Origin: an uncultured delta proteobacterium
GTDB lineage: Bacteria > Desulfobacterota > WTBG01 > CAIYCZ01 > CAIRTM01
DNA length: 64,000 nt
Reading direction: 5' to 3'
Assembly (NCBI GenBank): GCA_903881505.1
Contig: CAIRTM010000011.1
Span: 5,612 to 69,611 of the forward strand
The notes under the pieces are model-generated. The model did not search any database, had not been told where the DNA came from, and was given only the letters and a program-made list of their open reading frames with translations. Both the position numbers and the translations under genes were made by a program. Shown here piece after piece: positions 1 to 54,155 of the stretch (position 1 is the stretch's first letter; the number at the start of each line of letters is the position of its first letter).

Positions 1-1402
1 CGGCCAGCACGTCAAGATAGCCGTATCCGTAGGTGTAATTGCCCTGACCCGAGGGGGGCGCGCCGCAGTCGCCGGCCGGTGCTGTGCCGGCCGTGCCCTG
101 CAGTGCCTGAATGGTTGCGTCGATATCGCCCCGAAGGTCCGGGCTGCAGGCCCACAGCAGGGCAACGGCACCGGCCGTGTGGGGACTGGCCATGGATGTG
201 CCGCTGTAGCCGCAGCTCCATCCGTTGGTCGGAACCGAGGAACACACGTTTACGCCGGGTGCGGAAATATTCGGCTTGGTGTAGGGCGTGGCGCCAAAGG
301 CCGAAGGGCCGCGGCTGGAAAACGAAGCTATGGTTCCGCCGCTGTCATGGGCTGCCGTTGCAAAGCTTTCCTGGTAGTCTCCGGGGGAGAGGAGAGTGCC
401 GCAGGTTGGCCCCTGGTTGCCCGCGGAAAAAGCGGGGAAGATGCCGGCCGCCCGCCAGGCATTGACCTTGGAAAGGTACCAGTTGTTCCCGGAACCGCCG
501 CCCCAGGAATTATTGACCACATGGGGCCGGTTAGCCGGATTGCCGTTCGGGGCTATGATCCAGTCAGCGCAGGAATTCAGCGCAAAATCGGAGCAGCTGT
601 TTGACTCGCAGCCCTTGCAGGCGATCCACGCCGCCCCGGGCGCCATGCCGGCCTGCCAGGTGAGCGCGGGATTATTGTCCCCGACCATGGTTCCCATAAC
701 GTGGGTGCCGTGGCCGTTATTGTCGCAGGCGCCGCCTGCGCCGCAGACGTTCGAAGGGTCGCTCCAGCAGGCCGGATCAGCGGGATCGCTGCCGCATTTG
801 TAGGCGCCGGCCAGGGCCGGATGGTTCCACTGCACGCCGGTATCGATGTTGGCAACGACGATGCCGTCACCTTCGCCGTAGGTCGGCCAGAACTGATCGG
901 CCCCGGTGTCGACAATACCCCAGGCAAGAGTGCCGGACGTCCGCGGCTGCGCGCTCACGGAATCATCGATGATCGGGGGAACGATTGCATAGGTGCCGGC
1001 CGTTGTGACTGCCGACACCTCAGGCAGCCCGGCCAGCGTGCTCGCCAGTTCGATGCCGCCGCCGCGCACATACAGAAGATTGCCGGTGAAAAAGGACACA
1101 TACTCAATCCCGGCCTCATCAAGCGTCCGGCGCGCCTGCGCCTGGCTCTCATCTGCGTTCCTGCGCAGCGCATCGTAGACAAACCGGCCGCGGGCATTCC
1201 AGTCCATATCATAGGCAGGACTCAGGTCGGCCTGCCGGGCAAAGTGCAGAATAAAATCAGCCTGCCCCTGCACCTGCAGCGCCTGCGCCAGCTCGGGCGC
1301 TATCTTTGTATTGGATGGAGGTATCTGGTTATTCTGCGCCCATGCGCCGGAGGCGGCCAGCACCAGTAGCGCAACAACTGCCTGTACAATTCTGTCTTGC
1401 AT
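1..1402 (-). CDS. Subtilisin-like S8 serine peptidase, paralog of the 6910..10438 gene. Only the N-terminal ~467 aa are in the window. The gene runs off the left edge and is missed by the ORF track.
   Basis: Manual minus-strand translation from ATG at 1402: MQDRIVQAVVALLVLAASGAWAQ (signal peptide), FILHFARQADL (I9 propeptide-like), DTGVQWNHPAL / HGTHVMGT / GTSMASPH catalytic triad motifs. About 75% aa identity to the 6910..10438 protease, and near-identical DNA stretches (e.g. ~150-250 vs ~9190-9290). Confidence 0.75.
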   Translation of the reverse strand, partial: MQDRIVQAVVALLVLAASGAWAQNNQIPPSNTKIAPELAQALQVQGQADFILHFARQADLSPAYDMDWNARGRFVYDALRRNADESQAQARRTLDEAGIEYVSFFTGNLLYVRGGGIELASTLAGLPEVSAVTTAGTYAIVPPIIDDSVSAQPRTSGTLAWGIVDTGADQFWPTYGEGDGIVVANIDTGVQWNHPALAGAYKCGSDPADPACWSDPSNVCGAGGACDNNGHGTHVMGTMVGDNNPALTWQAGMAPGAAWIACKGCESNSCSDFALNSCADWIIAPNGNPANRPHVVNNSWGGGSGNNWYLSKVNAWRAAGIFPAFSAGNQGPTCGTLLSPGDYQESFATAAHDSGGTIASFSSRGPSAFGATPYTKPNISAPGVNVCSSVPTNGWSCGYSGTSMASPHTAGAVALLWACSPDLRGDIDATIQALQGTAGTAPAGDCGAPPSGQGNYTYGYGYLDVLA

Positions 1403-1560
1403 ACGTCCTTCTCCTGTTTTTATAACGATTTATACCTGCTGGCACAACAGAGCAACCACAGCTGCTGTACGGAATTATACTATTAGTAATACTCCGACCG
1501 TACCCAAATATCAACCTGAATATAAAAAACGACAACGGGCAGTTTCTTCACGAAAAAAAA

Positions 1561-1581
1561 CAGGGCCCGCATGAGGCCCTG
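1561..1581 (-). terminator. Rho-independent terminator after the 1616..2824 gene
   Basis: On the minus strand: CAGGGCCTCATGCGGGCCCTG hairpin followed by a T8 run, immediately 3-prime of the stop codon. Confidence 0.6.
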
Positions 1582-1615
1582 TCTGTGATGCGTATTCTTC
1601 CCGGTAAAAAACCTG

Positions 1616-2824
1616 CTACTGGATCGCAACCTCGCCGGAGCAGTCGCCCACGCTGATCGGGTAGGCGCCCGGCGCAAGGCCGGCAGGCACGGTGACGAGT
1701 ATTTTCATCCGTTTTTTCTTCTGATTGAACTTCACTTTATTCCAGGTAAACACCCCCGGGTCAATCAGGCCGAAAACGTCAAAGGACTCATCCAGGCTCG
1801 TGACCTTCAATACCACCTTCCGGGCCCTGGTGAGCTTCTCAGAGCGGATTTCTTTGTTTGTGACGATGAGTTCACACGGAAATCTGCACACGCCTTCATC
1901 GCAGAACTGGCCTTCCGTGCAGTTGTCGTCGCTCAAACATTCAACGCACGTATCATTGCCCTCGTCGCATACGGGAGTGTCATCGCCGCAGGGATCGCCC
2001 GAGGCAACGCAGGTGCCGTTGTCGCAGGTTTCGACGCCGGTGCAGAACAGGCCGTCGTCACACTCATTGTCACTTTCACACGCACCTCCTGAGGCGAAGT
2101 TATCCAGCACGGCACCGCCGGCATACCCCGCGATGCCGATGCCGGTCCCCTCCGGCGCCGGCGCCCCGGAACAGACGTAGGTCTGGTTCGACTGTGCGCC
2201 GCCGTCGATATTGGTGAACTCGATGGTGACGTCGCTGCCGACGCGCGTGGCCCTCATGTGGGCCGTGGAGAACGGTGAAGACAGAGAGAAAAAGCCCAGA
2301 CCGAAAGAAGTGCTGTTATTTCCGGTGTAACAGGCAGCTGTGTCGAACAGGCCGCCCCCGCCGTTCTGCTGGACCTTGAGGAACAGGTTGGAGCTTCCGG
2401 CGCCGTAGTTGAGCACCAGACCGGTGTACTGCGTGCCTGAGCCGGCAGGGCCGACATCTGCCTCGGCGGTGTTGCCGTCCCCGGGGGCGCTGTTGAACGT
2501 CGCCAGGCCCATGCCGCCGCAGACGGCTGCATTGCTCGCGACGTTGCACCAGCCTGCACGCACGGTCCAGTTGGAGCCGATGGGACCGTCAGCGCGGTTA
2601 AAATCGTCGAGAATGCTGAGCGGTGCGGCTCCTGCGAGCTGATCAGGTCCGCCGGTTATTGCCGGAACTCCGGTCGGCGCCGGCTGGCCGAGCGTTGCAT
2701 CCACGGCCGGCGCTGCCTGCTGCGGGGCTGCCGGATCGTTTCCGGCAAATACCGCCGGCGCGGCAAACAGCACGGCCGAGCATGCGGCGGCAGCGACAGT
2801 CATCATAACGGTTACTGGTTTCAT
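1616..2824 (-). CDS. Secreted cysteine-rich repeat protein (402 aa). Signal peptide, one 8-Cys module, and the shared ~90-aa C-terminal domain.
   Basis: ORF track. N-terminal MKPVTVMMTVAAAACSAVLFAAPAVFAG signal. Cys module CxSDNECDDGLFCTGVETCDNGTCVASGDPC..TPVCDEGNDTCVEC. C-terminus CELIVTNK...VPAGLAPGAYPISVGDCSGEVAIQ is homologous to the C-termini of 3066..5951 and 6910..10438. A terminator sits downstream. Confidence 0.8.
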   Translation of the reverse strand: MKPVTVMMTVAAAACSAVLFAAPAVFAGNDPAAPQQAAPAVDATLGQPAPTGVPAITGGPDQLAGAAPLSILDDFNRADGPIGSNWTVRAGWCNVASNAAVCGGMGLATFNSAPGDGNTAEADVGPAGSGTQYTGLVLNYGAGSSNLFLKVQQNGGGGLFDTAACYTGNNSTSFGLGFFSLSSPFSTAHMRATRVGSDVTIEFTNIDGGAQSNQTYVCSGAPAPEGTGIGIAGYAGGAVLDNFASGGACESDNECDDGLFCTGVETCDNGTCVASGDPCGDDTPVCDEGNDTCVECLSDDNCTEGQFCDEGVCRFPCELIVTNKEIRSEKLTRARKVVLKVTSLDESFDVFGLIDPGVFTWNKVKFNQKKKRMKILVTVPAGLAPGAYPISVGDCSGEVAIQ

Positions 2825-3012
2825 GGCATTCTTCCCCTCTCCTTATACAGTGTTTTCAGTCTATTGAACAACGCACCCTGATGCGCGTGGAGCTTATGCC
2901 TGTATATACTCACTATTTAATATTAAACACTGCTATTTTTCAACAAAAAAATTGGCATCATGCGCGGCATGGCAGGAGCCGGACCGCAGTTGTACGCAAA
3001 AGGCTGCAAAAA

Positions 3013-3046
3013 AGGCAGGGCCGTTTGGCGGCCCTGCCTTCGGTTC
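3013..3046 (-). terminator. Rho-independent terminator after the 3066..5951 gene
   Basis: Minus strand: AAGGCAGGGCCGCCAAACGGCCCTGCCTTTTTT (GC stem plus T-run). Confidence 0.6.
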
Positions 3047-3065
3047 ACGCTTGGCACAAAAAGGC

Positions 3066-5951
3066 TCAGGGAGTGATCACGACCTCGCCGTAACAGTCAC
3101 CGACCCAGATCGTTATCGTCTGGGGTGTCATGCCCGCAGGTACGGTGGCATGGATTTTCAGATGGTTCTTCTTCCTGCCGAACACCACCTTGTTCCATGT
3201 GAGCGGACCCAGATCGATCCGGCCGTAAATATCAAATGCCGGATCAGCACTGGTAACCTTCAGAACGACCTTCCGGGCCTTGAAGAGCTTCGCGGCGCTG
3301 ATAGTCTTGTGCGTCACGGTCAGCTCGCAGCGCGGCACGCACACGTTTTCGCGGCACCATTCCGTCCCGGCGCAGTCGCCGTCAGCAAGGCACCCAACGC
3401 AGCGGTCGCCGGCCTCGTCGCAAACGGACGTTTCGCCCTCGCAGGAGTCTTCGGCAAAACCGCACGCGTTAGCCGTGCAGGTCGGCGCTCCCGTGCAGAA
3501 CAGGCCGTCATCCGGGCAGTCGCCGCTCGTGAGGCACTCAACGCAGGTGTCAGTGTCCTCATTGCAGAACGGGGTCGCGCCCTCGCAGGAGTCTTCGGCA
3601 AAGCCGCACACGTTATTCGTGCAGATCGGCGCTCCCGTACAGAACAGACTGTCATCCGGGCAGTCGCCGTCAGCAAGGCATTCCACGCAGGTGTCGCCGT
3701 CCTCGTCGCAGAACGGTGTCGCGTTGTCGCCCGCGCAGGGGTCCCCGGCAAAACCGCACACGTTGTTAATACATGTCGGCGCCCCCGTGCAGAAAAGACT
3801 GTCGTCCGGGCAGTCGCCGTCGGCAAGGCACTCAACGCAGGTGTCATTGTCCTCATCGCAGAACGGCGTCGCATTGTCGCCCGCGCAGGGGTCGCCCGGT
3901 GAAACGCACGCACCGTTGTCGCAGAATTCAAGGCCGTTGCAGTACTGGCCGTCGTCGCATTCGTTGTCGGAATCGCAGCACACGTAGCACTCCCGCCCCC
4001 GATATTCGACATAATCCATAGCAGCCGATCCATACCCGTCAATCGACCACAGTTTACCGTCCGCGACATTGGCAATATTGTCCAATCGGGCGTTATTCAT
4101 ATCATCAAGCAGTTCCCAGTCCCAGCTCGAACCGTTGTAACTGCCGCGAGCAACCGTCGATGTAAAGTTGAAGCTCCCGGCAGCACCGCCTATCTGATAA
4201 AAATCACCACCAAGAAAATCACCTTCCAGCCGGTAGCGGGCTGAGCCGGTGTTGCCGGCAGAGTGCCAGGAATTGTCGGCATCGTCAAAGTACCAGGCCT
4301 GGTCTGAAATGCTGCTGCCGCTCTGCGCTCCGGCCACGGACCAGAACTGATCGCCTGTCGGGGCATGCAGCACGCCGTCAGCCGCGCCCCACACATCAGT
4401 GGGATAGACGCCCATCTGTGCGTTCTCCGCATTCCACGCGCCAGGCGCAGACTGGCTCAGGTCATAGCACTGCGTGCTGGTCATTCCCCCGCCGTTATTG
4501 CCGCCGCCGATGCACAGGTACTTGACGCTGTCGATTGTACCAACCCAGGAATCATGGAAATCACGCACGGTTGTAAAGCTGCCAAGCTGCGTGAAGGCAT
4601 TTGCAACGGGATCATACACATAGGCTTCATTCAAATTACCAGCGCCGGGAGCAGTGGCGCCGCCGGTGACGTAGCACAGGTTGGTATCGGCATCATAGGC
4701 CCAGTCAGGAGCCCAGCGGTTTGCAGGCGTGTTAGTTGCGCCCGGATCAAACCAACTATTGGTATCATGATTATAGCCGTTGAAGCCGTTAATAGAACCT
4801 GCGGTGTCGCCAATAATATAGGTTACAAGGTCACCGGCAGCGTTTCTGGCCGTGCAGCCGTCAACCGGATAACCGCCGCCGGCCCACCCCGGAGCAGAGT
4901 CCGAAACCATCTGCCATTCAGGCTGTGCATCAATTGTATAGGTGACGGTGGCATTATCATAATAGCCGTTGCCGGATGCCCGGATCTGACCGGTCACATT
5001 GTCGCCGTCATCCAAACACAGATCGGTCGCAAGAGTCACCTGCAGGGTCTCGGTTGCGTTATCAGCAACGAAAATTGATGCAGGCCCGGCAAGCGTGCCG
5101 TTGAGGCTGGGCACGCTGTAGCTCAGGGTGAACGTGGCGTTATCGCCGGTTTTGTTCGTGATGGAGAGAGTGTAAGTGGCATTGTCGCCGTTGCAGCCGG
5201 CGTCGGTCTGGTTGTCTGGGGTAAGGAAATCCGCCTTCTCGCTGCCGCAAGCCGGCACTTGGGCCTGCGGATTCACGGCCTGATCGCAGGCATTCTGCCC
5301 TGCGGGGGTATAGCCGTCATCACTGCAGGGCCAGTGGGGGGTGCCTGCGTATCCATCGCCGTCCCAGTACCATGAAACGGGAGCAGACGCGCCGGCTTCG
5401 GCCGGTGTCACATCGAAACAGTAATAGGCGGTGCAGTGGTCAACTGTCAGCTGATAGCGCGGGTGATAAATATTAACCTCATAGGGCGAGGTCTGAAAGC
5501 TCCAGTTGAAGCTCCCCCAGTTTGCTCCACTGCTGCAGACCGGCGTTCCCTGAACGTCGGCACTGGTCACGCTCCAGTCTGAAGGGAACCTGACCCACAC
5601 GTTATAGACATACTCATAGTCATTCGTGAATGACTCGGCACGGAAGCACAGTGTCTGCGATTCTCCCGGTGTATAGCAGGTATCGCCTCCGCCCGATGAA
5701 TCAAAGGCCACATAGGATCCGCTCAGGCTCTGCGGAGCGACAGCCTGCGGGGCCGCATGAGCAGTTGGCAGCCTGGGCTTGGAAACGACCGCAGGTGCCA
5801 CAGGTGCCGGCGGAGCCGCAAGAACCGCAGGGGCTGCAGGAGCCTCAGGGTCAGTGCCGGTGAATACGGCCTGTGCACGCGCCGAAGCAACAAGCAGCAC
5901 GGCCGCACACACAAAAGCCGCCGCAGAGATAAAAATGTTTTTTTGCCGCAT
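3066..5951 (-). CDS. Secreted 961-aa protein. Kelch/beta-propeller-like N-terminal region, about 4.5 tandem 8-Cys modules, then the shared ~90-aa C-terminal domain.
   Basis: ORF track. Signal peptide MRQKNIFISAAAFVCAAVLLVASARAQ. Repeated unit CLADGDCPDDSLFCTGAPTCxNNVCGFAxDxCAGDNATPFCDEDxDTCVE. C-terminus PRCELTVTHK...VPAGMTPQTITIWVGDCYGEVVITP. Antisense ORFs 3280..3987 and 3320..4075 are artefacts of the repeats. Confidence 0.8.
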   Translation of the reverse strand: MRQKNIFISAAAFVCAAVLLVASARAQAVFTGTDPEAPAAPAVLAAPPAPVAPAVVSKPRLPTAHAAPQAVAPQSLSGSYVAFDSSGGGDTCYTPGESQTLCFRAESFTNDYEYVYNVWVRFPSDWSVTSADVQGTPVCSSGANWGSFNWSFQTSPYEVNIYHPRYQLTVDHCTAYYCFDVTPAEAGASAPVSWYWDGDGYAGTPHWPCSDDGYTPAGQNACDQAVNPQAQVPACGSEKADFLTPDNQTDAGCNGDNATYTLSITNKTGDNATFTLSYSVPSLNGTLAGPASIFVADNATETLQVTLATDLCLDDGDNVTGQIRASGNGYYDNATVTYTIDAQPEWQMVSDSAPGWAGGGYPVDGCTARNAAGDLVTYIIGDTAGSINGFNGYNHDTNSWFDPGATNTPANRWAPDWAYDADTNLCYVTGGATAPGAGNLNEAYVYDPVANAFTQLGSFTTVRDFHDSWVGTIDSVKYLCIGGGNNGGGMTSTQCYDLSQSAPGAWNAENAQMGVYPTDVWGAADGVLHAPTGDQFWSVAGAQSGSSISDQAWYFDDADNSWHSAGNTGSARYRLEGDFLGGDFYQIGGAAGSFNFTSTVARGSYNGSSWDWELLDDMNNARLDNIANVADGKLWSIDGYGSAAMDYVEYRGRECYVCCDSDNECDDGQYCNGLEFCDNGACVSPGDPCAGDNATPFCDEDNDTCVECLADGDCPDDSLFCTGAPTCINNVCGFAGDPCAGDNATPFCDEDGDTCVECLADGDCPDDSLFCTGAPICTNNVCGFAEDSCEGATPFCNEDTDTCVECLTSGDCPDDGLFCTGAPTCTANACGFAEDSCEGETSVCDEAGDRCVGCLADGDCAGTEWCRENVCVPRCELTVTHKTISAAKLFKARKVVLKVTSADPAFDIYGRIDLGPLTWNKVVFGRKKNHLKIHATVPAGMTPQTITIWVGDCYGEVVITP
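3340..3990. repeat. DNA-level tandem repeats (unit ~144-153 bp, ~4.5 copies) encoding the 8-Cys modules
   Basis: Recurring near-identical blocks GGCAAA(A/G)CCGCAC(G/A)CGTT...GTGCAGAACAG(G/A)C(C/T)GTCATCCGGGCAGTCGCC spaced ~144-153 bp apart across ~3450-3900. Confidence 0.6.
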
Positions 5952-6397
5952 AGCCTTCCTCTCTCTTTAATTATGATTTTTTAAGTAATTATAAATAGTT
6001 AGAAATTAATCTTGGCAAGCCACATGAAGCAGCGCATCGATTATGCCTATATACGAGTTTGAATGTAATACTAAACACTGTCGATTTTCAACTGAAAAGT
6101 TGATGAAACGCAAAAAAAAACGGGATACAGGGATTCTGATAATTATAAAAACATCAAAGAGAAACACGCAACGATGCGACGAGTGCTTACGGATTTATAA
6201 CTATTGCCCTGCATGTACAAAACATTCTCTTAAGGGACACTGCGGAGGAGATACACAGGCCTATTGGAAAGTTTACGCTCACCGTCCAAGGGGTTAGCGG
6301 ACGTTAGAAAAATTGCTGAATACATACAGGGCAGGATCATGCCTGAAGATCGGAACTGCAACCAGGCCAGAATACAGGACAAGCGCCACAGGCGGTA

Positions 6398-6559
6398 TCA
6401 ATGTTTCGGCGGCGCCGCCTCATCTGCCTCGTCGGCAAGCACCCGGCGCAACGCTTCAGGCACCGGGTCTGTTGCATCGCGTTCCGGTTCACGGCCATCG
6501 CCTGCCCGGTCCAGCCGTTCCGTTTCCCTGTCGATCCAGGCAAGCAGTTCTTTTTTCAT
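6398..6559 (-). CDS. Possible small acidic protein (53 aa). Absent from the ORF track.
   Basis: Manual minus-strand translation: MKKELLAWIDRETERLDRAGDGREPERDATDPVPEALRRVLADEADEAAPPKH. AGGAG lies ~9 nt upstream of the ATG. No homology was recognised. Confidence 0.25.
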   Translation of the reverse strand: MKKELLAWIDRETERLDRAGDGREPERDATDPVPEALRRVLADEADEAAPPKH

Positions 6560-6695
6560 ATACGCCGCTCCTGTGAAGTGTATGCGCTTTCATAGCCCCA
6601 AAAACAAAAAACTGTAAAGTCACTTTTTAACTTTTATAAAAAGTGAAGCCAATTCAATATGTTGTTAGCGAAAAGCATAAAAACGCTTTAAATGT

Positions 6696-6830
6696 TCACC
6701 AGATCGTCGAGCGCATCCTGATCCGCTCAACCGTGTACTGAAACCCATCCTCCATAAGGCGCTTAGGAACAACGGCCTGTCCGTCAAACAGCATGCAGGC
6801 CCTTTGCGCATATACGAGAAAACTGTGCCG
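6696..6830 (-). pseudogene. Relic 3-prime end of a TIGR01777-type epimerase paralog
   Basis: Minus-strand translation ...RACMLFDGQAVVPKRLMEDGFQYTVERI aligns with the C-terminus of the intact 10737..11633 protein (ACVLLDGQIAVPKRLTDAGFRFQYQRI), and the DNA shows the same similarity. It has no N-terminal body. Confidence 0.55.
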
Positions 6831-6840
6831 AGGCATAGAT

Positions 6841-6884
6841 ACACACAGGCAGGGGCGCTTATCGCCAGCCCCTGCCTGTGTGTA
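6841..6884. terminator. Strong GC hairpin downstream of the S8 peptidase gene. Candidate terminator.
   Basis: ACACACAGGCAGGGGC...GCCCCTGCCTGTGTGT perfect 16-bp inverted repeat. No clean U-run follows, so its role is uncertain. Confidence 0.45.
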
Positions 6885-6909
6885 ATCCATTGTGTCTGAG
6901 AAACAAAGT

Positions 6910-9900
6910 TCAGTCGATCACGACCTCACCACCGCAGTCGCCTACGCGGATCGGGATAACCTGCGGCGCAAGGCCCGCAGGCACGACCACCTTGATCTTG
7001 AGTTTGTTCTTCTTCAGTATATATTGGGTTTTTTCATGGACAAGCGGGCCGAGGTCAACCCGGCCGAACATATCAAAACCATCACCGCCGCTGATGAGCA
7101 GCGTCCGCCGCATGTGTTTCTTCAGTTTGAGCGCGTGCATTACCTTATATTGAACGGTCAGCCTGCATTTCAGGCGGAAGTTCGCGACAAGTACGCGATC
7201 TTCTTCGAGCGTGAATGTATACGACGGGCTTGAACTGACCGCCACGCCGTCTTCCGTCCAGTTGACGAATTCATATATATCAGTCGGAGAAGCGGTTACG
7301 GTAACGGAACTGCCCTCGCCGTACGTTCCGCCGCCGGATACGCTGCCCCCTTCAGCAGGATTAGCGCTTACCGAGACCGTGTGGGTCACAACGTTCATCC
7401 GCACAGGAACGGCAATGTCGCCGTACGGTGACGAATTGCGGACTCGAAGAACAGCCTGATAGAGGCCGGCTCCCGTAATATGCGGGTCAGCGGCATCAAA
7501 CAGCACATCGACCGTCCGGCTCCCGCCGGCTGCCACGCTGCCGCTTTCCGGGCTGACAGCCAGCCAGGTCGGTGATATCTCTCCAGGTGTGCTGCCCGGT
7601 AATTTGATAATGTCAAAATCAGCAGCCAGCCCGCCGGAGTTGGACAGGGTCAGGGGCAACGTCGAGGTCTGCCCCATGCCAAGGGTCACGCTCAGTTCAG
7701 CGGGATACGAGGACAGCTGGCCTGTGGCCAGATCGAAATCAGCCCTCACCGCCGTGCCGGCAATAACGGGCACTGTTTGGACCGCCTCTCCGTACCGGTC
7801 CATGCTGGCCCGGAAGACGGGTGTGCCCACCTCGGAATACAGGGTGTAGAAGCCATCGGGCAGAGCAGGATCCGCCGACGTTGGCAGCGTCAGCACCTGC
7901 TGCCCGGCGTCGCCCTCAACCAGGGCGCCGACAAGGCCTGTCTGGGTGTTCGCGTCAAAAACATTGCCCACCACGATGCCGCCTGTGGGGTCGTTACATC
8001 CCCCGATGGACACACGGTCGATATAGTAACCATTATAGGTCACGCTGCTGTCCGTGGTGATCCGGAAGCGGAATTGAGCCGTGCCGCCGGCGGCGGCGGA
8101 GATGGTATATTTCTTCTCAGCCCAGCCCGTCTGGGTCGTGCTTCCCGAATGCTGCCACATCACCTGCCAGGGTCCGCCGTTGATGCTCACCTCGGCATAG
8201 GCATGATCATAAGTTGCGCTCTCCATGTGCAGGGCCTGCCACCACCTGGCTTCCAGCGGGCCGGTAACCCCGCCCAGATCAATCACCGGCGAGGTCAGGA
8301 CGGCATTGGCGTTATTGGGATACAAACCGTCCAGGTTGGTGCCCCAGCATTTCGTTCCCGAAGCACAGGCACTCGGCCAGGTTACCGGCGAGCCCCACTC
8401 CCACAAATCCGCAGGAGTGCCTGAAGGTATGTAGCTGCCGTTATTGACCTCAAAATCCTGCAGATACGCCGTACTAGAGTACCCCGGGGCGGCGCAGGTC
8501 TGCAGGTTGGCTTCAAGGGCGAAGTCCTCCGTACGGTTGCCGGTCAGCGGCCCGACGCTGCGCTCGGCCGGGATATAGCCCTGCACAAAGGCCGACGCCG
8601 TAAACGGGAGGACGACTCCCTGCGGCAGGGACACGCTGTACGCGCCGGTGACCGGATCGGTCCACACAGGGTCTCCGGACCGCCCAGCGATGGTGATGCT
8701 GGCGTACAGGGGCCAGCCCGTGGTTGCATCCTCTACCCGGCCGGAAACAGTGCTGAAAGGAGCCGCTTCCAGCAAAAAATCCTGGGTCGTTGTGAGTTCT
8801 TCGGTTATTTCCACGCCGGAAGCGCTGCCCGGCAGGAAACCGTATGCCGTGGCTGTGATCTCGTACGTTCCCTCAAGCAGGAATATGGAATAGAACCCGT
8901 TCGAATCCGTTACCGCAGAGCGTGTTATCGGGCCGACGGCCCTGACCAGAACTCCCTCGAGAGGCGTATTGCCGGCGGCATTTTGTACATGCCCGTTCAA
9001 GGTGCCGGCAGCGCCGCAGTACTGGGCTCCGGCGGCGAGAACGTCAAGGCGGCCGTATCCGTACGTGTAGTTGCCCTGCCCGGAAGGAGGCGCGCCGCAG
9101 GTGGTTGCAGTCGCCTCTTCAGCGGTGCTCTGCAGGGCCTGAATGGTAAGGTCGATATTGCCCGCCAGCTCCGGGCTGCAGGCCCACAGCAGGGCAACGG
9201 CACCGGCCGTGTGGGGACTGGCCATGGATGTGCCGCTGTAGCCGCAGCTCCATCCGTTGGTCGGAACCGAGGAACACACGTTCACGCCGGGCGCGGAAAT
9301 GTTCGGCTTGGTGTAGGGAGTATAGCCGAATGCCGAAGGTCCCCGGCTGGAAAACGAAGCTATCAGCCCGGTGCTGTCATGGGCTGCCGATGCAAAGCTT
9401 TCCTGATAGTCTCCGGGCGAACCCATTGAGCCGCAGCTCGGCCCGTTGTTTCCCGCGGAAAAAGCGGGGAAAATGCCGGCCGCCCGCCAGGCATTGACCT
9501 TGGAAAGATACCAGTTACTGCCGCCCCCGCCGCCCCAGGAATTGTTCACCACGTGGGGCCGGTTGTCCGGGTCGCCTCCGGGGGCGATAATCCAGTCCGC
9601 GCAGGAATTCAGCGCGAAATCAGAGCAGCTGTTTGACTCGCAGCCCTTGCAGGCGATCCAGGTCGCCCCGGGCGCCATGCCGGCCCTCCATTGCAGCGAA
9701 GTATCGTTGTCGCCGACCATGGTCCCCATGACGTGGGTCCCGTGACCGTTATTGTCGCAGGCGCCGCCTGCGCCGCAGATGTTCGAAGGATCGCTCCAGC
9801 ACGCCGGATCAGCGGGATCGCTGCCGCATTTGTAGGCGCCGGCAAGGGCCGGATGGTTCCACTGCACCCCGGTGTCGATATTGGCAACGATGGTCCCCTG

Positions 9901-10438
9901 GCCCGTGCCGTATGACTGCCAGAACTGATCGGCCTTCGTGTCGACGATCCCCCATGCCAGATCGCCGACTGCCTGCGGCTCCGCGCTGACGGATTCATCG
10001 ATAATCGGGGCGACGATCTCATAGGTCCCCGGCTTTGTCACGGCCGCAACTTCCGCGATGTCTGCCAGTGCCTTTGCCAGAGACGCTGAACCGCCGCGGA
10101 CGTACAGGCTGTTATCGGCAAAAAAGGATACATATTCGACCCCGGCCGAGTCCAGGATCTGCTTCGCATGAGCCTGACTGGCCTGCGCTGTCGCGCGAAG
10201 TGCATCGTAGACAAAACGGCCGCGGGCCTTCCAGTCCATACGATAGGCCGGCCCCAGGTCGGCCTGCTGCGCAAAATGCAGGATAAAATCTTCCTGGCCA
10301 TCGTCCTGAAGTGCCTGGACCAGCTCGGGGTCGATTTTTCCTGATGCATCCTTCGGATTATCCTGAGCCATTGCACTTGCGGCAACCAGCACCATCAGAC
10401 AAACCGCTGCATTCAAAATTTTCCGTCTCATCCCTTTC
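6910..10438 (-). CDS. Secreted multidomain subtilisin-like S8 peptidase (~1176 aa from the MRRKILN start). I9 propeptide, S8 catalytic domain, several beta-sandwich and CarbopepD_reg-like domains, then the shared ~90-aa C-terminal domain.
   Basis: ORF track, with the start corrected to ATG 10438 (AGGAGGAAAGGG RBS, signal peptide MRRKILNAAVCLMVLVAASAMAQ). Motifs DTGVQWNHPAL, HGTHVMGT, GTSMASPH. C-terminus KCRLTVQYK...VPAGLAPQVIPIRVGDCGGEVVID. Confidence 0.9.
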
Positions 10439-23283: not shown

Positions 23284-24386
23284 ATAGGGGACGTCCATAA
23301 ATTAATAAATAATTTTCAATCTAGCAGCTTGCATTTCAATTCTGCGGCCGTCTGCTCCCCGCGACGGCAAGCAAACACTATGGCTGGCTGCGTCAAACCA
23401 TATCGCTCGGCTAATGCCGTTCCGGATACACCCAGCTCATGCACTGCCCAGTATATGGCAAGACTGCGGGCTTCCACACGGCGCCGATCCCGCCCCTTCT
23501 TCCTTACTTCTTCTGCCGGCAGTCCCATTACTTCCGCTACCCGCCGTTCAATCTTATCAATGTCATAGCCCCGGCGCTTTAATTCATATCCCCGGCGGCA
23601 TGTCTCCTCTGCACGCGATAGCACCTGTTCAACAAAATCACTGTCTCCCAGTATCCGCACATCGCTCTTTACACGGTCCTGGCCTTGCAAGCGGATTTTT
23701 TTGACAGCATCCCAGCCGCCCATGCTCCGAATCAATCCGCCGCCAACCAGCTCCGGCCGCCTGCCATGTTCAATCCCCTGAGCAATAAACTGTGAATACT
23801 GTTTCCGCGCCATTTGTACCTTTTTGCCGAACATGTTGACCACATAGCCTGTCTGCTGCCAGGTGTAAGCTTTCTCTCCTATCAGGGCGCTGTGCCCAGC
23901 GTATGCGTACTTGTCCAGCTGCTTCATTGTTCTTACAATACCGGCCCTTAACGGATTTAAATGAATATAGCGGACCAGTTCCTTCAGATAGATATCCTCC
24001 TGGCATATAATTGATTTATACCGATTCTGAAACAGCTGACCGTGACGGTTATACTTACGATTGAAATATCCGGAATACCCAGTCAAAAGCCTCCTCATAA
24101 GCGTTGCCAGACCCACATCGCCAGTACGCAAAAGTAAATGCGCATGGTTGTCCATCAGTGCCCATGCATAGCAGCTCGTGTTGCTGGCCACAAGAAACTG
24201 CCCCAGCCGCTGAATAAACCACTCCTTATCCGCTGAAGTGCGAAAAATCTTTTTGCGCTCAATCCCCCGGAAGATAACGTGATGCACTACACCGGGTGCG
24301 TCCAGTCGGGCTACTCGTGGCATGCAAACACTTCTATCAAAGCACATCCCTTCCGTCAATTTATTAATTTATGGACGTCCCCTATA
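23284..24386 (-). mobile_element. IS200/IS605-like insertion element bounded by perfect 26-bp terminal inverted repeats
   Basis: ATAGGGGACGTCCATAAATTAATAA at 23284..23309, and its reverse complement at 24361..24386, flank the transposase gene. Confidence 0.75.
23316..24323 (-). CDS. IS200-like Y1 (HuH) transposase fused to a DnaA domain-IV-like C-terminal HTH
   Basis: ORF track (23316..24359, TTG start). The likely start is MPRVARLDAPGVVHHVIFRG. HuH motif MDNHAHLL and catalytic Tyr region FQNRYKS. The C-terminal RSLAIYWAVHELGVSGTALAERYGLTQPAIVFACRRGEQ resembles the DnaA C-terminal DNA-binding domain. Confidence 0.8.
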   Translation of the reverse strand: MPRVARLDAPGVVHHVIFRGIERKKIFRTSADKEWFIQRLGQFLVASNTSCYAWALMDNHAHLLLRTGDVGLATLMRRLLTGYSGYFNRKYNRHGQLFQNRYKSIICQEDIYLKELVRYIHLNPLRAGIVRTMKQLDKYAYAGHSALIGEKAYTWQQTGYVVNMFGKKVQMARKQYSQFIAQGIEHGRRPELVGGGLIRSMGGWDAVKKIRLQGQDRVKSDVRILGDSDFVEQVLSRAEETCRRGYELKRRGYDIDKIERRVAEVMGLPAEEVRKKGRDRRRVEARSLAIYWAVHELGVSGTALAERYGLTQPAIVFACRRGEQTAAELKCKLLD

Positions 24387-24661: not shown

Positions 24662-25015
24662 TTATTTCTTTAAAAATGAGATTAAAAAAAGACTGGCTGA
24701 ACCTAATAGAACAATTCCCAAAATTGCAGCCGGAATCATATAATACAAAGCACCCGCCATTTCATCCAAATTTTGATTAATCATATAAGCAGCTATGCAT
24801 ATTAGTTCAAAAAAAACCAAGTGCCCCACAGAATGAATGGTGAATTTTGTATTAAAACAAAGAGGCATTGCAATCGAATATAAAATAGCCAACACTGAAA
24901 ACAGAATGAAAAAAAGCATGAGATGCCCATCTTTGCCTCTTGTAACGGCGTAAGATGCGATGACCAATAAGGTGCCAAACCAGTATAAATTGAAAATCTT
25001 CAATAGTGATTTCAC
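24662..25015 (-). CDS. Putative immunity protein of the Rhs toxin (117 aa, polytopic membrane protein)
   Basis: Its start overlaps the Rhs stop. Low-GC codon usage matches the toxin C-terminal domain. Four hydrophobic helices. Confidence 0.6.
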   Translation of the reverse strand: MKSLLKIFNLYWFGTLLVIASYAVTRGKDGHLMLFFILFSVLAILYSIAMPLCFNTKFTIHSVGHLVFFELICIAAYMINQNLDEMAGALYYMIPAAILGIVLLGSASLFLISFLKK

Positions 25016-28000
25016 CAGATACTCCCCATTGCTTTAATTTGGTTAATCGCAGGATTTTTTGAAACAATTATATCTGGAGCTGGTGCAAGATCAGGCCCAT
25101 GAATATTTGTAAAGAAGTCTGCTGAAAGCATATAATCCGAATGATTATATTCATCAAAAGGCTTATCATGTGGCAATATATATTTGCCCATGGTTTCATC
25201 TGGAGCAAATTTTCTATTCGTTATCCAACCAAGTTCCTGAATTTTTGCGATCTCATCTCCTTTTGCACCAATTCCGCCTTTAAACCATGCCCATTCATCA
25301 TTGGGGGACCAGTAATTATACGTTTTTCCCCGAATCTGAGATAGAGCCTTTAATAAATCATTCGTTTCTGAATTGAACGGGAGTACATCCAGAGGACTTC
25401 CCATCATGATAAAAGTATCCACCTTTGATCCACCTTGTAGAGCAGCAAGGCTAATTATTGTACCTTGACTGTGGGCAATAATACTAATAGGTTCACAACT
25501 TTTTTCTTTTTCCTTTATGCTATTCAAGAGATTTAAAATTCTTTTTAACCTATCAACACTAACCATCATGTATTTTCTGTTCGAATCTCGCATGCCCGCA
25601 ACGCTATCTGTTGCATAATTAGGCTGTCCACCTTGTTTTCTTGACAAGCCGAACGAAGTAGATGGATCCCCCCATTTAAAAGGAATTATTTCCTGAATAT
25701 TCTGCCCAGTAGAATTCCAATAGGCCTTCAAACCCTTTTCCGCAGTACTAAACCATGCAGCATCGGTATTTACACCATGAACCAATACAACGACATCACC
25801 TAAAGGATCGATGCAATCATTGGTATTATTAAAAACAAAATTATATAGATTGACACCCCCTGCTTCCCCCATCGGGTCTCTATTCAACCACCGTCCAAGT
25901 ACCGGGCTGTAATATCTGTAGCCATAATAATAGAGCCCCGTCTCAGCTTCGAGGTACTTTGTGGAAAAACGGTACGGGTTAGCTTCTGCCAACAAGCCAT
26001 TAGAATTGATGGTATTCCCGAAGGGATCGTATTCGTAGTGTGCGGCGATAATGCCATCAGTGTCTACAAGCTGGCCGACGTTGCCGTTGGCGTCGCAGGT
26101 GTAGTAGTGTGCGTTGTCGCTGATACGGGTAAGCAATCCGCCGATGCCGCCTGCGCCCTGGAGGGTGCCGGAGAGGTCGAGGCCCCAGACGTACAAAACA
26201 GAAGTCTGAAGTCCAGGGTTCGAGGTCGGAATAGAAACTTCACAGATAAGATTCCAGCCGTCGTAGAGGAAGCGGGTGTCGGAAGCAGCAGACCAGGAAT
26301 CGGCGTTGTAGTCAAACACCTGCTTTTGCACGCGGCGGCTCATGTAGTCGTAGGTGAAGGCGACCTTGCGGGTTCCGGGAGCAGGGGTTTGCGGTTCGAC
26401 AGAGATAAGGCGGTTTTCGGCATCGTAGGTTAAGGCGGTGCGCACGGCGCCCGCTACACTACCTGCGACCAGATTGCCGTCTTCGTCGTAGTGCAGGTCA
26501 TCAGTAACCGGCGCGCCCGCGTTCGTGGTGATCTGTGTGTATTGATTGAGCGGATTCGGGTCGTAGGTGATCTGCTTCGTCAATGCTTCGATTGCCGATT
26601 CGCGATTGCCGATATTGTCGTAGGCGAAGGTGCGGGCTTCGGCGTTGACCGGGGTGGTGGTGTCGCCTGTGTCGGTTCCGATGTAGCTCTGCGATCCAGT
26701 CAATTCACTGCGTGAGTTGTAGCCGTAGAGGTTGAAGGCGGCCCGGTCAAAGGCTGCGCCGGAGTTTTTAACGCTGGTCCTGCGGCCCATGCTGTCGTAG
26801 GCGTATGCATAATTTGAAATAATTTGCGCATTGTATGCGTTTTCAATGTTTGTTCGTACATTCCTGTTAGGTTCATAGCTGTAGGTTGTTATCAGACCTC
26901 TGTCGGTCGTGGTGCTCTGCAGCAGATGTGAATTCGGCACGTATGAATACACAGCATTGCCGGACAGGCTGTCGCCAGTCCAGCCTACATTGATAAATCT
27001 GCCGGTGGGGTCGTAGGCGTAGGTGATGTCATACCCAGCACCAAGAGAAAAACCGGAAGAACGGCCTAACCCGTCGTAGTCTCGAGTGATGGTTTCATTC
27101 ATAAGCCCGGTCATGGTTTCTGTTTCAAGCTGCAGGGCGCTGTTATAGGCAAATGTTCTGCTGCCGGCTGCATCACTCACGGTCTTCTGCCTGCCGAGAC
27201 GGTCATAAGAGAACTGCACATCGGGCGTGGCATCGGAATAATCAATTGCCGCAAGCTCTCCGGTTGCGGGATCATAATTATAGCTGGTGACAATCGTTCC
27301 GCCTTCGCGCGCCCAGGTGCGGCTTGCAAGCCTGCCGCCTGATGCGTAGGTATAGGCAACCTGCTTGCCTTCAGCATCCTGCTTTGCCTTGAGCAGCCCG
27401 GTTGCCTCATCATAGATCCACAGGGTTTCATCGCCTGATGCCCCTGCGGGGAACGTTTCGCCGTCAAAGCCTGCGCCTTCGCGGTAAGTGAGCATACGCG
27501 CAAGCCTACCGTAACCGTCATACTCATAGCTCACCGGATAAGTGGCGCTGCCCCACTGACGGGTGATCTGGCCCTGATTGTTGTAGCTGTAGCGCACGGT
27601 TGTGTTGTCAGGATTGGTCTCGGATATCTTCTCGCCGGTCGCCGAATTATAGTTGTACAGCGTGCGGTTACCGGCTGCATCCTGCACCCAGGCGACCCGG
27701 CCATGCGAGGTGTAACCTGTTGTGCTTCTGCCCGTGCGTGGATCGGTCAGGCCTACCCTTCTGCCAAGATCGTCATAGGCATAGGTCAACGTCACTCCGC
27801 TTTTGCCCGTGCTTGACATGAGCAAACCGTTCACGCTGAATGACACCGCATCGATGGTGCTGTCAGGATAATCAACCGTGGCGGTTTCAGTGCCCGCAGC
27901 CCGGTTGATTACGCTCCTTGATACCACCCGGTTGCCGAGCGTGTCAATTGAAACATTCTCGCTCACGAGCCCGCCCGAGCCAAGCCCGGTAAAGCGGCTT

Positions 28001-34053: not shown

Positions 34054-34823
34054 TAAAGAGCTCCTTTAGTGCGGTGATGGTCGTTTGTGGACGAAGTAGG
34101 CGTTGTGGACACTGTGGACTCAGTTGACCGGCACCGGGAGCGCACGCGGTAGAGGCGCTCGGTGAAACCGCCTTCATTTTCAAAGGCCTGTGCAAGGGAA
34201 GCGAGCTGACGGTCAAGCAGCGCACAGGCAACGGCCACAAGCGCAAGAGCGCCGTTGGCGGCTATTTCGGGAAAACCGGGAGTGGACATGGTGGACGATG
34301 TGGACGGCGTGGACGAAAAACCTTTATTAATATTTTTTTCAAAATGTCCACTGCGTCCACATCGTCCACTTGGTCCACTGTTGTACACCTCCCGCACCCA
34401 GTGCGCAAACTCATCGGCCGTTGTGCAGCGCCGGTCAACCAGGGCCTGCCTGCGCGCGTCCCCGCGCTGCCAGAGGGGCAGGCCCCGCTGGCGCAGAAAA
34501 TCCTCATAATCGACCCGGAGTTCCTCAAGGCTTGCGCGTGCGACACTGGTGAGCCGCAGCTCGGTTTTTTTCGAAGTGCCGGATGCCTGGCTGCCCTCGG
34601 CGATATTTTGCACGCCTGAGCGCGCAGCCTGCACCATCTGGTCGCGCGTTCGGCTGCGCCGGTCGACATAGCGCTCGCAGAAGCGCACGGTCACGTCATG
34701 CACGAGACGGGCGACTTGAAAGCTTTTCAGCCCGCGGTAGCCGCCGTGTTTTGGTATAAGCTTTTCAGTCATTCTGGGGCTCGCATTCAGGCAGTGTGCC
34801 GATGAACGGTTCATGGCCGACAT
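34053..34823 (-). CDS. Four-helix-bundle protein (TIGR02436 / 23S rRNA intervening-sequence protein family, DGR Avd-like fold). The 3-prime third overlaps the repeat/palindrome region.
   Basis: The likely start is MTEKLIPKHGG. It overlaps the upstream stop as ATGACTGA. Family motifs QMVQAARSGVQNIAEGS and LTSVARASLEEL. The ORF then reads through the GTGGAC arrays as STPSTSSTMST. Whether the downstream ~380 bp is coding is uncertain. Confidence 0.65.
   Translation of the reverse strand: MSAMNRSSAHCLNASPRMTEKLIPKHGGYRGLKSFQVARLVHDVTVRFCERYVDRRSRTRDQMVQAARSGVQNIAEGSQASGTSKKTELRLTSVARASLEELRVDYEDFLRQRGLPLWQRGDARRQALVDRRCTTADEFAHWVREVYNSGPSGRCGRSGHFEKNINKGFSSTPSTSSTMSTPGFPEIAANGALALVAVACALLDRQLASLAQAFENEGGFTERLYRVRSRCRSTESTVSTTPTSSTNDHHRTKGAL
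34084..34381. repeat. Arrays of head-to-tail 9-bp TGTGGACNN repeats (resembling high-GC DnaA boxes), arranged as a ~37-bp-arm palindrome around a 27-bp AT-rich core, plus a third array
   Basis: 34279..34316 GTGGACATGGTGGACGATGTGGACGGCGTGGACG. AT core AAAAACCTTTATTAATATTTTTTTCAAAA. 34344..34381 TCCACTGCGTCCACATCGTCCACTTGGTCCAC (inverted). 34084..34128 TGTGGACGAAGTAGGCGTTGTGGACACTGTGGACTCAGTTGACC. Confidence 0.6.
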
Positions 34824-53002: not shown

Positions 53003-53063
53003 AGTTCCTCACCTTCAACGTGTTTGTGTTCGTATATACTGCCTGCTCCAGTTGCCCGCCCGG

Positions 53064-53690
53064 TTACTTGCTGTAGAGTTCGACGATGAGCTGCTCCCGG
53101 ATCGGAGCGATTATTTCCTCGCGTTCCGGCACGGCAAGCACCTTGCCGGTGAACTGCTCGCTGTTAAGCTCAAGCCAGCGCGGGATGCCGCGCTGTTTTG
53201 CCGTCTCGATGGCATCCTTGATGCGCTGGACAGTCCGGCTGCGTTCGCGCACGCTGATTACGTCCTCAGGCCTCAGCAGGTACGAAGGAATATCGACCTT
53301 TTTACCGTTAATCCGGAAATGACCATGCTTGATCATCTGGCGCGCCTCATTGCGAGAGCTGCAAAATCCCAGCCTGAAGATCATGTTATCGAAACGGCTC
53401 TCAAGGGTCGCGATCAGGTTTTCGCCGGTCACACCTTTTTTTTGGCTTGCCTTGTGGTAATACGTGCGAAACTGCTTTTCCAGAACGCCATACATGCGCT
53501 TGACCTTCTGCTTTTCGCGCAACTGCTCGCCGTAGGGTGAAAACTTCGCCCTGCCCTGCCCGTGCTGTCCGGGCGCAAACTGCCGGCGGTCAAAAGCGCA
53601 GGAATCAGTGAAGCAGCGCTCACCCTTCAAAAAAAGCTTCATATTTTCCCGGCGACATTGCCGGCACCGTGGTCCTGTATATCGTGCCAA
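53064..53690 (-). CDS. rpsD: 30S ribosomal protein S4
   Basis: [15 protein letters not shown]... Zn-ribbon N-terminus, 208 aa. Confidence 0.95.
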
Positions 53691-53743
53691 AAGGATTCTC
53701 CTTTCTCTCTAAGAGAACATGTGCGGTGTAATAAGACTGTCCG

Positions 53744-54136: not shown

Positions 54137-54155
54137 GGGTCGTCCTCACAACCTC

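What the first reader, a model, noticed from the sequence alone, without database searches (positions are those of the whole stretch)
1616..10438. Three tandem secreted proteins (S8 peptidase plus two Cys-rich repeat proteins) share an unclassified ~90-aa C-terminal domain
The last ~90 residues of three proteins align clearly over their full length with each other, and only with each other in this window. The proteins are 1616..2824, 3066..5951 and 6910..10438. The domain starts with a Cys ([RK]C[ER]L[TI]V..K), carries a Lys-rich patch (KKKRMKI / RKKNHLKI / KKNKLKI) and a VPAG motif, and ends with VGDCxGEVxI. I do not recognise it as PEP-CTERM, LPXTG, T9SS CTD types A/B, PPC or MYXO-CTERM. A protease and its neighbouring non-enzymatic proteins carry the same tail, as happens with dedicated sorting or anchoring pathways such as exosortase/PEP-CTERM, T9SS and sortase. 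That arrangement suggests an undescribed sorting, anchoring or protein-protein docking module. The paralogous protease at 1..1402 probably carries it too, beyond the window edge.
Basis: seen in the sequence. Interest (0 to 1): 0.8.

Follow-up and report, generated by a model that had tools for sequence, protein, structure and literature searches.

The report
Unclassified basic Ig-like C-terminal tail
Several exported proteins of an uncultured deltaproteobacterium end in the same small, positively charged, disulfide-pinned Ig-like domain that no database names; it most likely tethers them to the cell surface, but this is inferred from comparisons, not shown.

Summary
Three minus-strand genes end in the same ~86-aa domain: 1616..2824, 3066..5951 and 6910..10431. 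Pairwise identity is 43-58%, and nothing else in the window matches. No Pfam or NCBIfam model covers the domain, even at E<=10.

It is not confined to these paralogs. About 100 protein clusters out of 1.84 billion carry it. All those with any label come from uncultured 'Deltaproteobacteria' MAGs or metagenomes, with at least 4-6 carriers per genome. The carriers have Sec signal peptides and very varied, very acidic passenger domains: S8 and C25 peptidases, Lcl_C, Kelch, LRR, hydrolases and a lectin-like jelly roll. A Myxococcus-type Cys-rich stalk usually precedes the tail.

The tail is a divergent IPT/TIG-like beta-sandwich. It has a co-varying Cys pair and nine conserved Lys/Arg positions, with a median pI of 9.6. 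Homologs of one passenger in other phyla carry IPTL-CTERM or PEP-CTERM tags in the same position.

My best reading is a non-covalent surface-anchoring or docking module. A T9SS-like secretion signal is the main rival. No conserved partner gene was found nearby. This is a new domain family of moderate interest; its function is unproven.

The parts
6910..10431 (-). S8a: secreted subtilase, 1173 aa. Architecture: signal peptide, Peptidase_S8, CarboxypepD_reg, MAM/choice-of-anchor J-like, choice-of-anchor D-like, Flg_new_2, then the tail directly, with no Cys stalk.
6913..7167 (-). Tail domain of S8a (residues 1089-1173). Net charge +9, pI 9.95.
3066..5951 (-). 961-aa secreted protein: signal peptide, Ig-like region and Kelch-type beta-propeller, Cys-rich stalk, tail.
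3330..3980 (-). Cys-rich repeat stalk of the 961-aa protein (residues 658-874).
   Evidence: Sequence; coordinates; Myxo_Cys_RPT/TraA-type repeats across carriers.
3069..3329 (-). Tail domain of the 961-aa protein (residues 875-961). Net charge +7, pI 9.8.
1616..2824 (-). 402-aa secreted protein: signal peptide, ConA-like lectin/glucanase jelly roll, Cys-rich stalk, tail.
   Evidence: AF2 pLDDT 94.2. Foldseek hits to legume lectins, GH16, CBMs and galectin-like folds. Identical to database protein P0012.
1877..2080 (-). Cys-rich repeat stalk of the 402-aa protein (residues 249-316). Weak TIGR04201 Myxo_Cys_RPT and TraA hits.
1619..1876 (-). Tail domain of the 402-aa protein (residues 317-402). 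Net charge +5, pI 9.48. This is the sequence that was modelled.
1558..1584 (-). Strong intrinsic-terminator-like hairpin (11-bp stem plus T run), 32 nt after the stop codon of the 402-aa gene.
1..1402 (-). 5' part of S8b, a paralogous subtilase 78.8% identical to S8a over 467 aa. The full gene is 818 aa and does NOT carry the tail. The next gene beyond the window edge is a 1034-aa Abhydrolase_5 protein that does carry it.
   Evidence: locus L040, 99.9% identical to window 1-12000.

Best explanation
The shared tail is a previously unclassified, lineage-restricted offshoot of the IPT/TIG (E-set) Ig-like fold. It serves as a modular module for keeping proteins on the cell surface (anchoring or docking).

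Proposed path:
1. Each carrier is exported by Sec. Type I signal peptides are seen on the carriers; export itself is inferred.
2. The tail folds in the oxidising periplasm or outside the cell, with a disulfide between its first-strand and last-strand Cys. This is inferred from correlated conservation and loss of the two Cys.
3. After crossing the outer membrane by an unidentified route, the very acidic passenger (pI about 4) is held away from the cell on a rigid Cys-rich stalk. This is inferred by analogy with Myxococcus TraA.
4. The strongly basic tail (median net charge +6, nine conserved Lys/Arg columns) binds non-covalently to an anionic envelope component. Candidates are LPS, a capsular or EPS polymer, an S-layer, or an acidic receptor protein. 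This step is inferred.

The window holds three carriers of a six-gene cluster of secreted proteins. A fourth carrier lies just outside the window.
For: Family and position:
- The family is real and narrow: 104 representatives at E<=1e-3 among 1.84e9 proteins, 72 of them at E<=1e-10. In 185,579 species genomes, true hits occur only in two 'Deltaproteobacteria' MAGs, with 4 loci in one and 5 in the other (6 carriers). The window genome has 4.
- 76 of 82 complete domains end within 8 residues of the C-terminus.

Carriers:
- Passengers are unrelated to one another: Lcl_C, Peptidase_S8, Kelch, DUF4394, MAM, Peptidase_C25, LRR_5, Oxidored_molyb, Abhydrolase. They also include adhesin-type and choice-of-anchor J/D domains.
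- Complete carriers have Sec signal peptides and no lipobox.

Comparative evidence for an anchor role:
- The lectin-like passenger of the 402-aa protein has homologs 50-77% identical in Desulfobacteraceae, Thermoanaerobaculales, Acidobacteria and Nitrospiraceae MAGs. In these, IPTL-CTERM (PF18203), PEP-CTERM (PF07589) or similar TM-plus-Arg tags follow directly after the same '...LDNFA' domain end. So stalk plus tail occupies the slot of known surface-sorting tags.
- IPTL-CTERM occurs on a verified S-layer protein (PMC8671808).

Evidence for a binding module rather than a signal:
- Tails have median pI 9.64 against passenger median pI 4.05 and -10.5 charges per 100 aa. Nine columns are >=71% K/R.
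- Some distant members append poly-Lys or Lys/Glu-rich extensions.
- The position is occasionally N-terminal (P0036, L026) or internal (L027, L028, L036), while the ortholog in L025 has it terminal.
- Ortholog pairs share 67-77% identity in the passenger but only 45-69% in the tail. P0018, an S8a ortholog, has the lowest tail identity of these pairs (45%). Tails therefore diverge faster than passengers and may be exchanged between subtypes.

Fold:
- hhalign of the tails against IPT/TIG repeats gives probability 92.8%, E=4e-7.
Against: - No ligand or receptor is identified, and surface location is not shown for any carrier.
- No outer-membrane translocation route is known for these proteins.
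- Basic charge could simply offset the acidic passengers.
- A PorU-like C25 peptidase carries the tail where PorU carries its T9SS CTD. That fits a secretion-signal reading at least as well.
- The choice-of-anchor argument rests on one passenger family examined in detail.
Confidence: 0.45

Rival explanations
1. The tail is a cargo-recognition signal, analogous to a T9SS C-terminal domain. In this reading a dedicated outer-membrane translocon recognises it, and a PorU-like C25 'sortase' may cleave it and replace it with a covalent anchor.
For: It shares the gross properties of T9SS CTDs: an Ig-like sandwich of 80-90 aa, at the extreme C-terminus, on many unrelated Sec-exported proteins per genome, including S8 and C25 peptidases and BspA-type LRR proteins (PMC4804311). 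One carrier, P0067 (1115 aa), is a PorU-like C25 peptidase: NF033707 T9SS_sortase at 261.6 bits, covering profile positions 9-735 of 1095. It has the tail where PorU has its own CTD. Known tags replace the tail in homologs.
Confidence: 0.2
2. The tail is a protein-protein docking module, cohesin/dockerin-like in logic. It would assemble the secreted enzymes and lectins into a multi-protein extracellular complex or matrix, for instance through basic tails binding the highly acidic Cys-rich stalks or a scaffold protein.
Against: No scaffold or receptor with repeated partner domains was seen in any locus. The cohesin similarity is no better than that to any other Ig-like fold. Many carriers lack a stalk (S8a, P0018, P0034, P0026).
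Confidence: 0.15
3. The tail is merely a structural Ig-like spacer or stabilising domain with no targeting role. In this reading it spread through a lineage-specific secretome by cassette shuffling together with the Cys-rich repeats.
Against: The preference for the extreme C-terminus, the nine conserved basic columns, the co-varying Cys pair and the replacement by sorting tags in homologs are all unexpected for a passive spacer. The family persists across loci with GC from 0.37 to 0.63.
Confidence: 0.15

Closest known systems
T9SS C-terminal domains (type A TIGR04183/PF18962; type B TIGR04131)
   Same: An Ig-like beta-sandwich of about 80-90 aa at the extreme C-terminus of many functionally unrelated Sec-exported proteins per genome. 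The cargo repertoire overlaps (S8 and C25 peptidases, BspA LRR), and a PorU-like peptidase itself carries the domain.
   Different: There is no HMM or sequence similarity, and the conserved motifs differ (C-x-L...K-x-x-K-L-x-K-P-R-K...VPAGL-x-PG...VGDC-x-GE). The tail is strongly basic and has a Cys pair. It is sometimes N-terminal or internal. It occurs in 'Deltaproteobacteria' MAGs, and no T9SS genes were seen.
IPT/TIG (E-set) Ig-like domains, Pfam PF01833
   Different: The Pfam TIG model does not detect it. It occurs as a single terminal copy rather than in tandem arrays, and it adds a disulfide and a conserved basic A-B loop.
Myxococcus TraA-type architecture (variable domain, Cys-rich repeats TIGR04201, MYXO-CTERM)
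   Same: The order is passenger, Cys-rich stalk, C-terminal element. Among 56 carriers, 9 hit Myxo_Cys_RPT and 5 hit TraA.
   Different: The terminal element is a folded 86-aa domain, not a short tripartite tag with a TM helix. No myxosortase-type processing is implied.
PEP-CTERM / IPTL-CTERM sorting tags
   Same: They occupy the same position after the same lectin-like passenger in homologs from other phyla.
   Different: They are short (about 25-30 aa) tags made of a motif, a TM helix and an Arg cluster. The tail has no hydrophobic helix and is a globular domain.
PPC (bacterial pre-peptidase C-terminal) domain PF04151
   Same: A small beta-sandwich at the C-terminus of secreted peptidases.
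   Different: There is no HMM match, and most carriers of the tail are not peptidases.

Membership tests
T9SS CTD type A/B | Match to PF18962 / TIGR04183 / TIGR04131 profile | tested here: not met
   The 3 window tails and 68 family tails give no hit at E<=10.
T9SS CTD type A/B | Obligate extreme C-terminal position (signal lies in the last ~22 residues; PMC4804311) | tested here: inconclusive
   76 of 82 domains are terminal. P0029, P0036, P0060, L026 and L027/L028/L036 are N-terminal or internal.
T9SS CTD type A/B | Genome encodes T9SS core components (SprA/Sov, PorK/L/M/N, PorV, PorU) | not testable with these tools
   Only about 10-kb flanks are available. A PorU-like protein scores below cut-off, 261.6 against 420 bits. 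No other component was seen in the neighbour scans.
IPT/TIG domain (PF01833) | Pfam gathering-threshold match | tested here: not met
   TIG does not appear among the hits at E<=10.
IPT/TIG domain (PF01833) | E-set Ig-like fold and profile-profile similarity | tested here: met
PEP-CTERM / IPTL-CTERM / MYXO-CTERM / LPXTG | Short signature motif, then a hydrophobic TM helix and a basic cluster at the C-terminus | tested here: not met
   The tails end in ...VGDCxGEVxI with no hydrophobic helix, and no NCBIfam or Pfam hit is found.
PPC pre-peptidase C-terminal domain (PF04151) | Pfam profile match | tested here: not met
   No hit at E<=10.
Myxo-type Cys-rich repeat (TIGR04201), for the stalk and not the tail | Profile match | tested here: inconclusive
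   The window 402-aa protein scores 21.5 bits against a cut-off of 25. 9 of 56 carriers hit at E<=1e-3, best 4.2e-7.

The most novel reading that the evidence does not exclude
The tail is the cargo tag of an undescribed outer-membrane secretion and attachment pathway in an uncultured deltaproteobacterial lineage. This would be a T9SS-like or entirely new system outside the Bacteroidota. Its PorU-like C25 peptidase carries the same tag, and the tag replaces IPTL-CTERM or PEP-CTERM tags on orthologous cargo.
Probability: 0.15. Interest if true: 0.8.

Novelty: new variant of a known kind. Interest (0 to 1): 0.45.

Why it matters
C-terminal sorting and anchoring domains determine which proteins a bacterium displays on its surface. 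Each newly recognised one (PEP-CTERM, the T9SS CTD, MYXO-CTERM) has exposed both a secretome and a piece of machinery. This tail gives a one-step way to list the surface and secreted proteins of a poorly known group of anaerobic, uncultured 'Deltaproteobacteria'. Those proteins include proteases, hydrolases, lectins and adhesins. The tail also deserves its own profile model in Pfam or NCBIfam. If it proves to be a secretion tag rather than a binding module, it would point to a T9SS-like pathway outside the Bacteroidota. If it is a basic envelope-binding Ig domain, it would be a compact candidate tag for surface display.

Tried and rejected
- Named sorting domains (PEP-CTERM, IPTL, MYXO-CTERM, LPXTG, T9SS A/B, PPC) were rejected by the HMM scans.
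- A PDB sequence search with the tail profile gave 0 hits at E<=10. Foldseek against PDB gave nothing at E<=1e-3. The afdb50 library was unavailable.
- A word-indexed protein search with the 68-tail alignment returned only 7 hits and added nothing.
- Loci L012-L014 from the genome scan are spurious partial matches to the VPAGL..PG motif. P0082, P0091, P0102 and P0108-P0110 are not family members: some are IPT/TIG-repeat proteins and the rest are other proteins.
- The search for a conserved partner gene found only syntenic housekeeping sets by BLAST clustering. Pfam on 148 non-redundant neighbours within 7 kb gave only TPR, radical SAM, ferredoxin and methyltransferase families, each in 3-4 neighbours at most.
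- Cluster look-ups gave no names beyond 'hypothetical protein [Deltaproteobacteria bacterium]'.
- The idea that the S8 peptidase is the dedicated partner was rejected: many carrier loci lack one.
- The idea that the PorU-like peptidase is a universal partner is weakened, because it is a remnant in the VGSH01 MAG.
- PglB-type sequons in the stalk are only weakly enriched: 0.142 per 100 aa against 0.089 +/- 0.019 in shuffled sequence.
- The finer taxonomy of the host could not be resolved with the available tools.
Full report
**1. The observation**

On the minus strand, three ORFs end in the same segment: 1616..2824 (402 aa), 3066..5951 (961 aa), and the ORF that ends at 6910. Aligned, the last ~90 residues have 32 invariant columns, and the other two tails are 58% and 43% identical to the first.

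I built an HMM from the three tails and ran it against all six reading frames of the 64-kb window. It finds only these three ORFs, at E=1e-47 to 1e-50; the next best score is E=0.92.

The subtilase starts at the ATG at 10431 (MRRKILNAAVCLMVLVAASAMAQ...). An independent gene call on a 99.9% identical contig also gives 1173 aa.

All three proteins have type I Sec signal peptides.

**2. It is unclassified**

- Whole proteins hit Peptidase_S8, CarboxypepD_reg, MAM-like, Flg_new_2 and Kelch models, plus weak Myxo_Cys_RPT and TraA, but nothing covers the tails.
- The three tails alone, and later 68 family tails scanned one by one, give no meaningful Pfam or NCBIfam hit at E<=10.
- The only recurring weak hits are two other Ig-like E-set families: Qn_am_d_aIII in 4 of 68 tails (best E=0.0076) and NPCBM_assoc in 4 of 68.
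- A profile search of PDB sequences finds nothing.

**3. There is a wider family**

- An exhaustive HMMER search of 1.84 billion cluster representatives finds 104 proteins at E<=1e-3 and 72 at E<=1e-10. One of them (P0012) is identical to the window's 402-aa protein.
- About six of the weakest hits are not members. Several are IPT/TIG-repeat proteins that match only the 'VPAGLxPGxYxIxV' part of the profile.
- A scan of 185,579 species-representative genomes finds true copies in only two MAGs, both labelled Deltaproteobacteria. One has 4 loci; the other has 5 loci holding 6 carriers.
- A metagenome scan adds 25 loci. GC content ranges from 0.37 to 0.63 across all fetched carrier loci, these 25 included, so several lineages are involved.
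- No source gives these proteins a name.

**4. Anatomy of the carriers**

- Of 82 complete domains, 76 end within 8 residues of the C-terminus.
- The exceptions:
  - P0036 and L026 have the domain directly after the signal peptide, followed by an esterase.
  - P0060 has it followed by TSP3-like and CarboxypepD_reg domains.
  - L027, L028 and L036 are Ntn hydrolases with the tail followed by about 60 aa of TSP3/Cys-rich sequence. Their ortholog in L025 has the tail strictly terminal.
  - A few distant members add Lys/Glu-rich or poly-Lys extensions.
- Passengers are heterogeneous. Among 56 carriers: Lcl_C in 6, Peptidase_S8 in 6, Kelch in 6, DUF4394 in 3, MAM in 3, and Peptidase_C25, BspA-type LRR, molybdopterin oxidoreductase and alpha/beta hydrolase in 1 each.
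- NCBIfam adds Myxo_Cys_RPT in 9, TraA in 5, choice-of-anchor J in 3, choice-of-anchor D in 2, and adhesin families.
- Complete carriers have Sec signal peptides and essentially no lipoboxes.
- Most carriers have Cys-rich repeats immediately before the tail. The window's S8a does not.

**5. The domain itself**

- AlphaFold2 with a 12-sequence alignment gives a confident beta-sandwich (pLDDT 84.3, pTM 0.70).
- Profile-profile comparison of the tail family with IPT/TIG repeats gives probability 92.8%, E=4e-7, in register over the C-terminal half.
- I therefore read the tail as a divergent IPT/TIG-like domain.
- Two features set it apart:
  - A Cys at the start of the first strand and a Cys at the start of the last strand are both present in 78 of 82 tails. 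Both are lost together in 3 tails, and only one is lost in 1 tail. This is the pattern expected of a disulfide.
  - Nine columns are >=71% Lys/Arg. Tails have a median net charge of +6 and pI 9.64. Their passengers have a median pI of 4.05 and -10.5 net charges per 100 residues.
- Between orthologs, tails are 45-69% identical where passengers are 67-77% identical. P0018, an S8a ortholog, has the lowest tail identity of these pairs (45%). Tails therefore diverge faster than passengers and may be exchanged between subtypes.

**6. Surroundings**

Locus L040 is 99.9% identical to window 1-12000 and runs past the left edge of the window. It shows a six-gene cluster of secreted proteins, in this order:
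1. S8a, with the tail.
2. The Kelch protein, with the tail.
3. The lectin-like protein, with the tail.
4. S8b, 818 aa, without the tail.
5. A 1034-aa Abhydrolase_5 protein, with the tail.
6. A 155-aa secreted protein, without the tail.

UvrC and Adk follow the cluster.

Upstream of the cluster, the genes for an epimerase, a metallophosphatase, an HD protein and FeoB are syntenic with L002 and L009. At the same site those loci carry a different, DUF1566-type carrier. The site thus behaves as a variable slot for such genes.

A strong terminator-like hairpin follows the 402-aa gene.

**7. Search for a partner gene**

- BLAST clustering of ORFs from about 40 loci finds only syntenic housekeeping sets.
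- A Pfam scan of 148 non-redundant neighbours within 7 kb shows only generic families, each present in 3-4 neighbours at most.
- Many carrier loci lack an S8 peptidase.

**8. Two comparative clues to function**

First, the passenger of the 402-aa protein is a ConA-like lectin/glucanase jelly roll (pLDDT 94.2; Foldseek hits).
- It has homologs 50-77% identical in Desulfobacteraceae, Thermoanaerobaculales, Acidobacteria and Nitrospiraceae MAGs.
- In these, the same domain end ('...LDNFA') is followed directly by an IPTL-CTERM tag, a PEP-CTERM tag, an 'IPAxG'-TM-RR tag, or a short 'IPVELxxFxVE' end.
- This is the behaviour that defines NCBI's 'choice-of-anchor' domains (described in PMC11878542). 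IPTL-CTERM is found on a verified S-layer protein (PMC8671808).
- Stalk plus tail therefore sits where surface-sorting tags sit.

Second, one carrier (P0067) is a PorU-like C25 peptidase.
- It scores 261.6 bits against the T9SS_sortase model, below the 420-bit cut-off.
- It has the tail where PorU has its own CTD.
- In the VGSH01 MAG this gene is only a C-terminal remnant, while other carriers there are intact.

**9. Interpretation**

The data support a targeting or anchoring role much better than a passive spacer. To choose between a secretion signal and a binding module, I weigh four points:
- the occasional N-terminal or internal position, whereas T9SS needs the last C-terminal residues (PMC4804311);
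- the conserved basic positions set against very acidic passengers;
- the poly-Lys add-ons in some distant members;
- the lack of any nearby processing enzyme.

These favour a non-covalent anchoring or docking module that binds an anionic envelope component (confidence about 0.45). A T9SS-like signal stands at about 0.2, protein-protein docking at about 0.15, and a passive domain at about 0.15. Every functional step beyond Sec export and the fold is inferred.

**10. Novelty and score**

This is a new domain family within a known fold. It is used in a known way (a shared terminal module on secreted proteins) but is distinct from every named sorting domain, so I rate it a new variant of a known kind. 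It is useful for annotating the secretome of an uncultured lineage. It would become exciting only if a dedicated pathway were found. Interest: 0.45.

Noticed in passing
L040 11423-17266 (just beyond window position 1): The S8 paralog truncated at the window edge is 818 aa and has no tail. The next gene, a 1034-aa Abhydrolase_5 protein, is a fourth tail carrier. A 155-aa secreted protein ends the cluster, before UvrC and Adk.
   Followed up: yes
window 6398..6559 (-); L002 8745..8891: A small acidic ORF without a signal peptide (53 aa, MKKELLAWIDRETERLDRAG...) lies in the 958-bp gap between S8a and the Kelch gene. It is conserved in the syntenic locus L002 (MKKDLIEWIDKEAARLEREG...), where it precedes a different carrier. 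Function unknown.
   Followed up: partly
window 25012..34053 (-), with the GC dip at 24001-26000: A 3013-aa RHS-repeat protein with a transglutaminase core and a C-terminal Tle3-like phospholipase domain. Its 3' toxin end lies in a low-GC stretch (0.415 against about 0.59). An IS200-like Y1 transposase gene is adjacent at 23316..24359. This looks like a polymorphic-toxin tip exchange.
   Followed up: no
window 34765..43422 (-): A 2885-aa surface protein with six CARDB domains, PKD domains, prenyltransferase/squalene-cyclase-like alpha-alpha toroid segments and a C-terminal pAdhesive_15 (ice-binding-like adhesive) domain. It does not carry the tail.
   Followed up: no
P0113, P0116-P0118, P0125, P0132, P0133, P0137, P0139, P0140 (homologs of the 402-aa protein's passenger): Homologs from Thermoanaerobaculales and Acidobacteria end in a short conserved 'IPVELxxFxVE' motif with no TM helix, in the slot where others have IPTL-CTERM or PEP-CTERM. 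This may be an unrecognised C-terminal tag.
   Followed up: no
P0067 contig (ERZ1426837) and L008 9394-15064: A PorU-like C25 peptidase carrying the tail sits next to a lipocalin, an STT3/PglB-type oligosaccharyltransferase and a GT2 gene. In L008 only a C-terminal remnant of the peptidase remains. The Cys-rich stalks often contain C-D-E-x-N-x-T-C, which is a bacterial D/E-x-N-x-S/T sequon. Enrichment is weak: 0.142 against 0.089 per 100 aa in shuffled sequence.
   Followed up: partly
P0079, P0093, P0098, P0099, P0100: Distant family members extend beyond the domain with poly-Lys or Lys/Glu-rich low-complexity tails of up to about 90 aa.
   Followed up: no
window 51977..64000 (-): Part of a ribosomal-protein/SecY/RpoA operon (L2, S3, SecY, RpoA) is present. 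It could place the organism phylogenetically, but the tools available here could not do that.
   Followed up: no
window 34053..34823 (-): A 256-aa ORF with a sub-threshold match (31.6 bits against a 33.8-bit cut-off) to the 23S rRNA-intervening-sequence protein family (PF05635) sits between the RHS gene and the giant adhesin gene.
   Followed up: no
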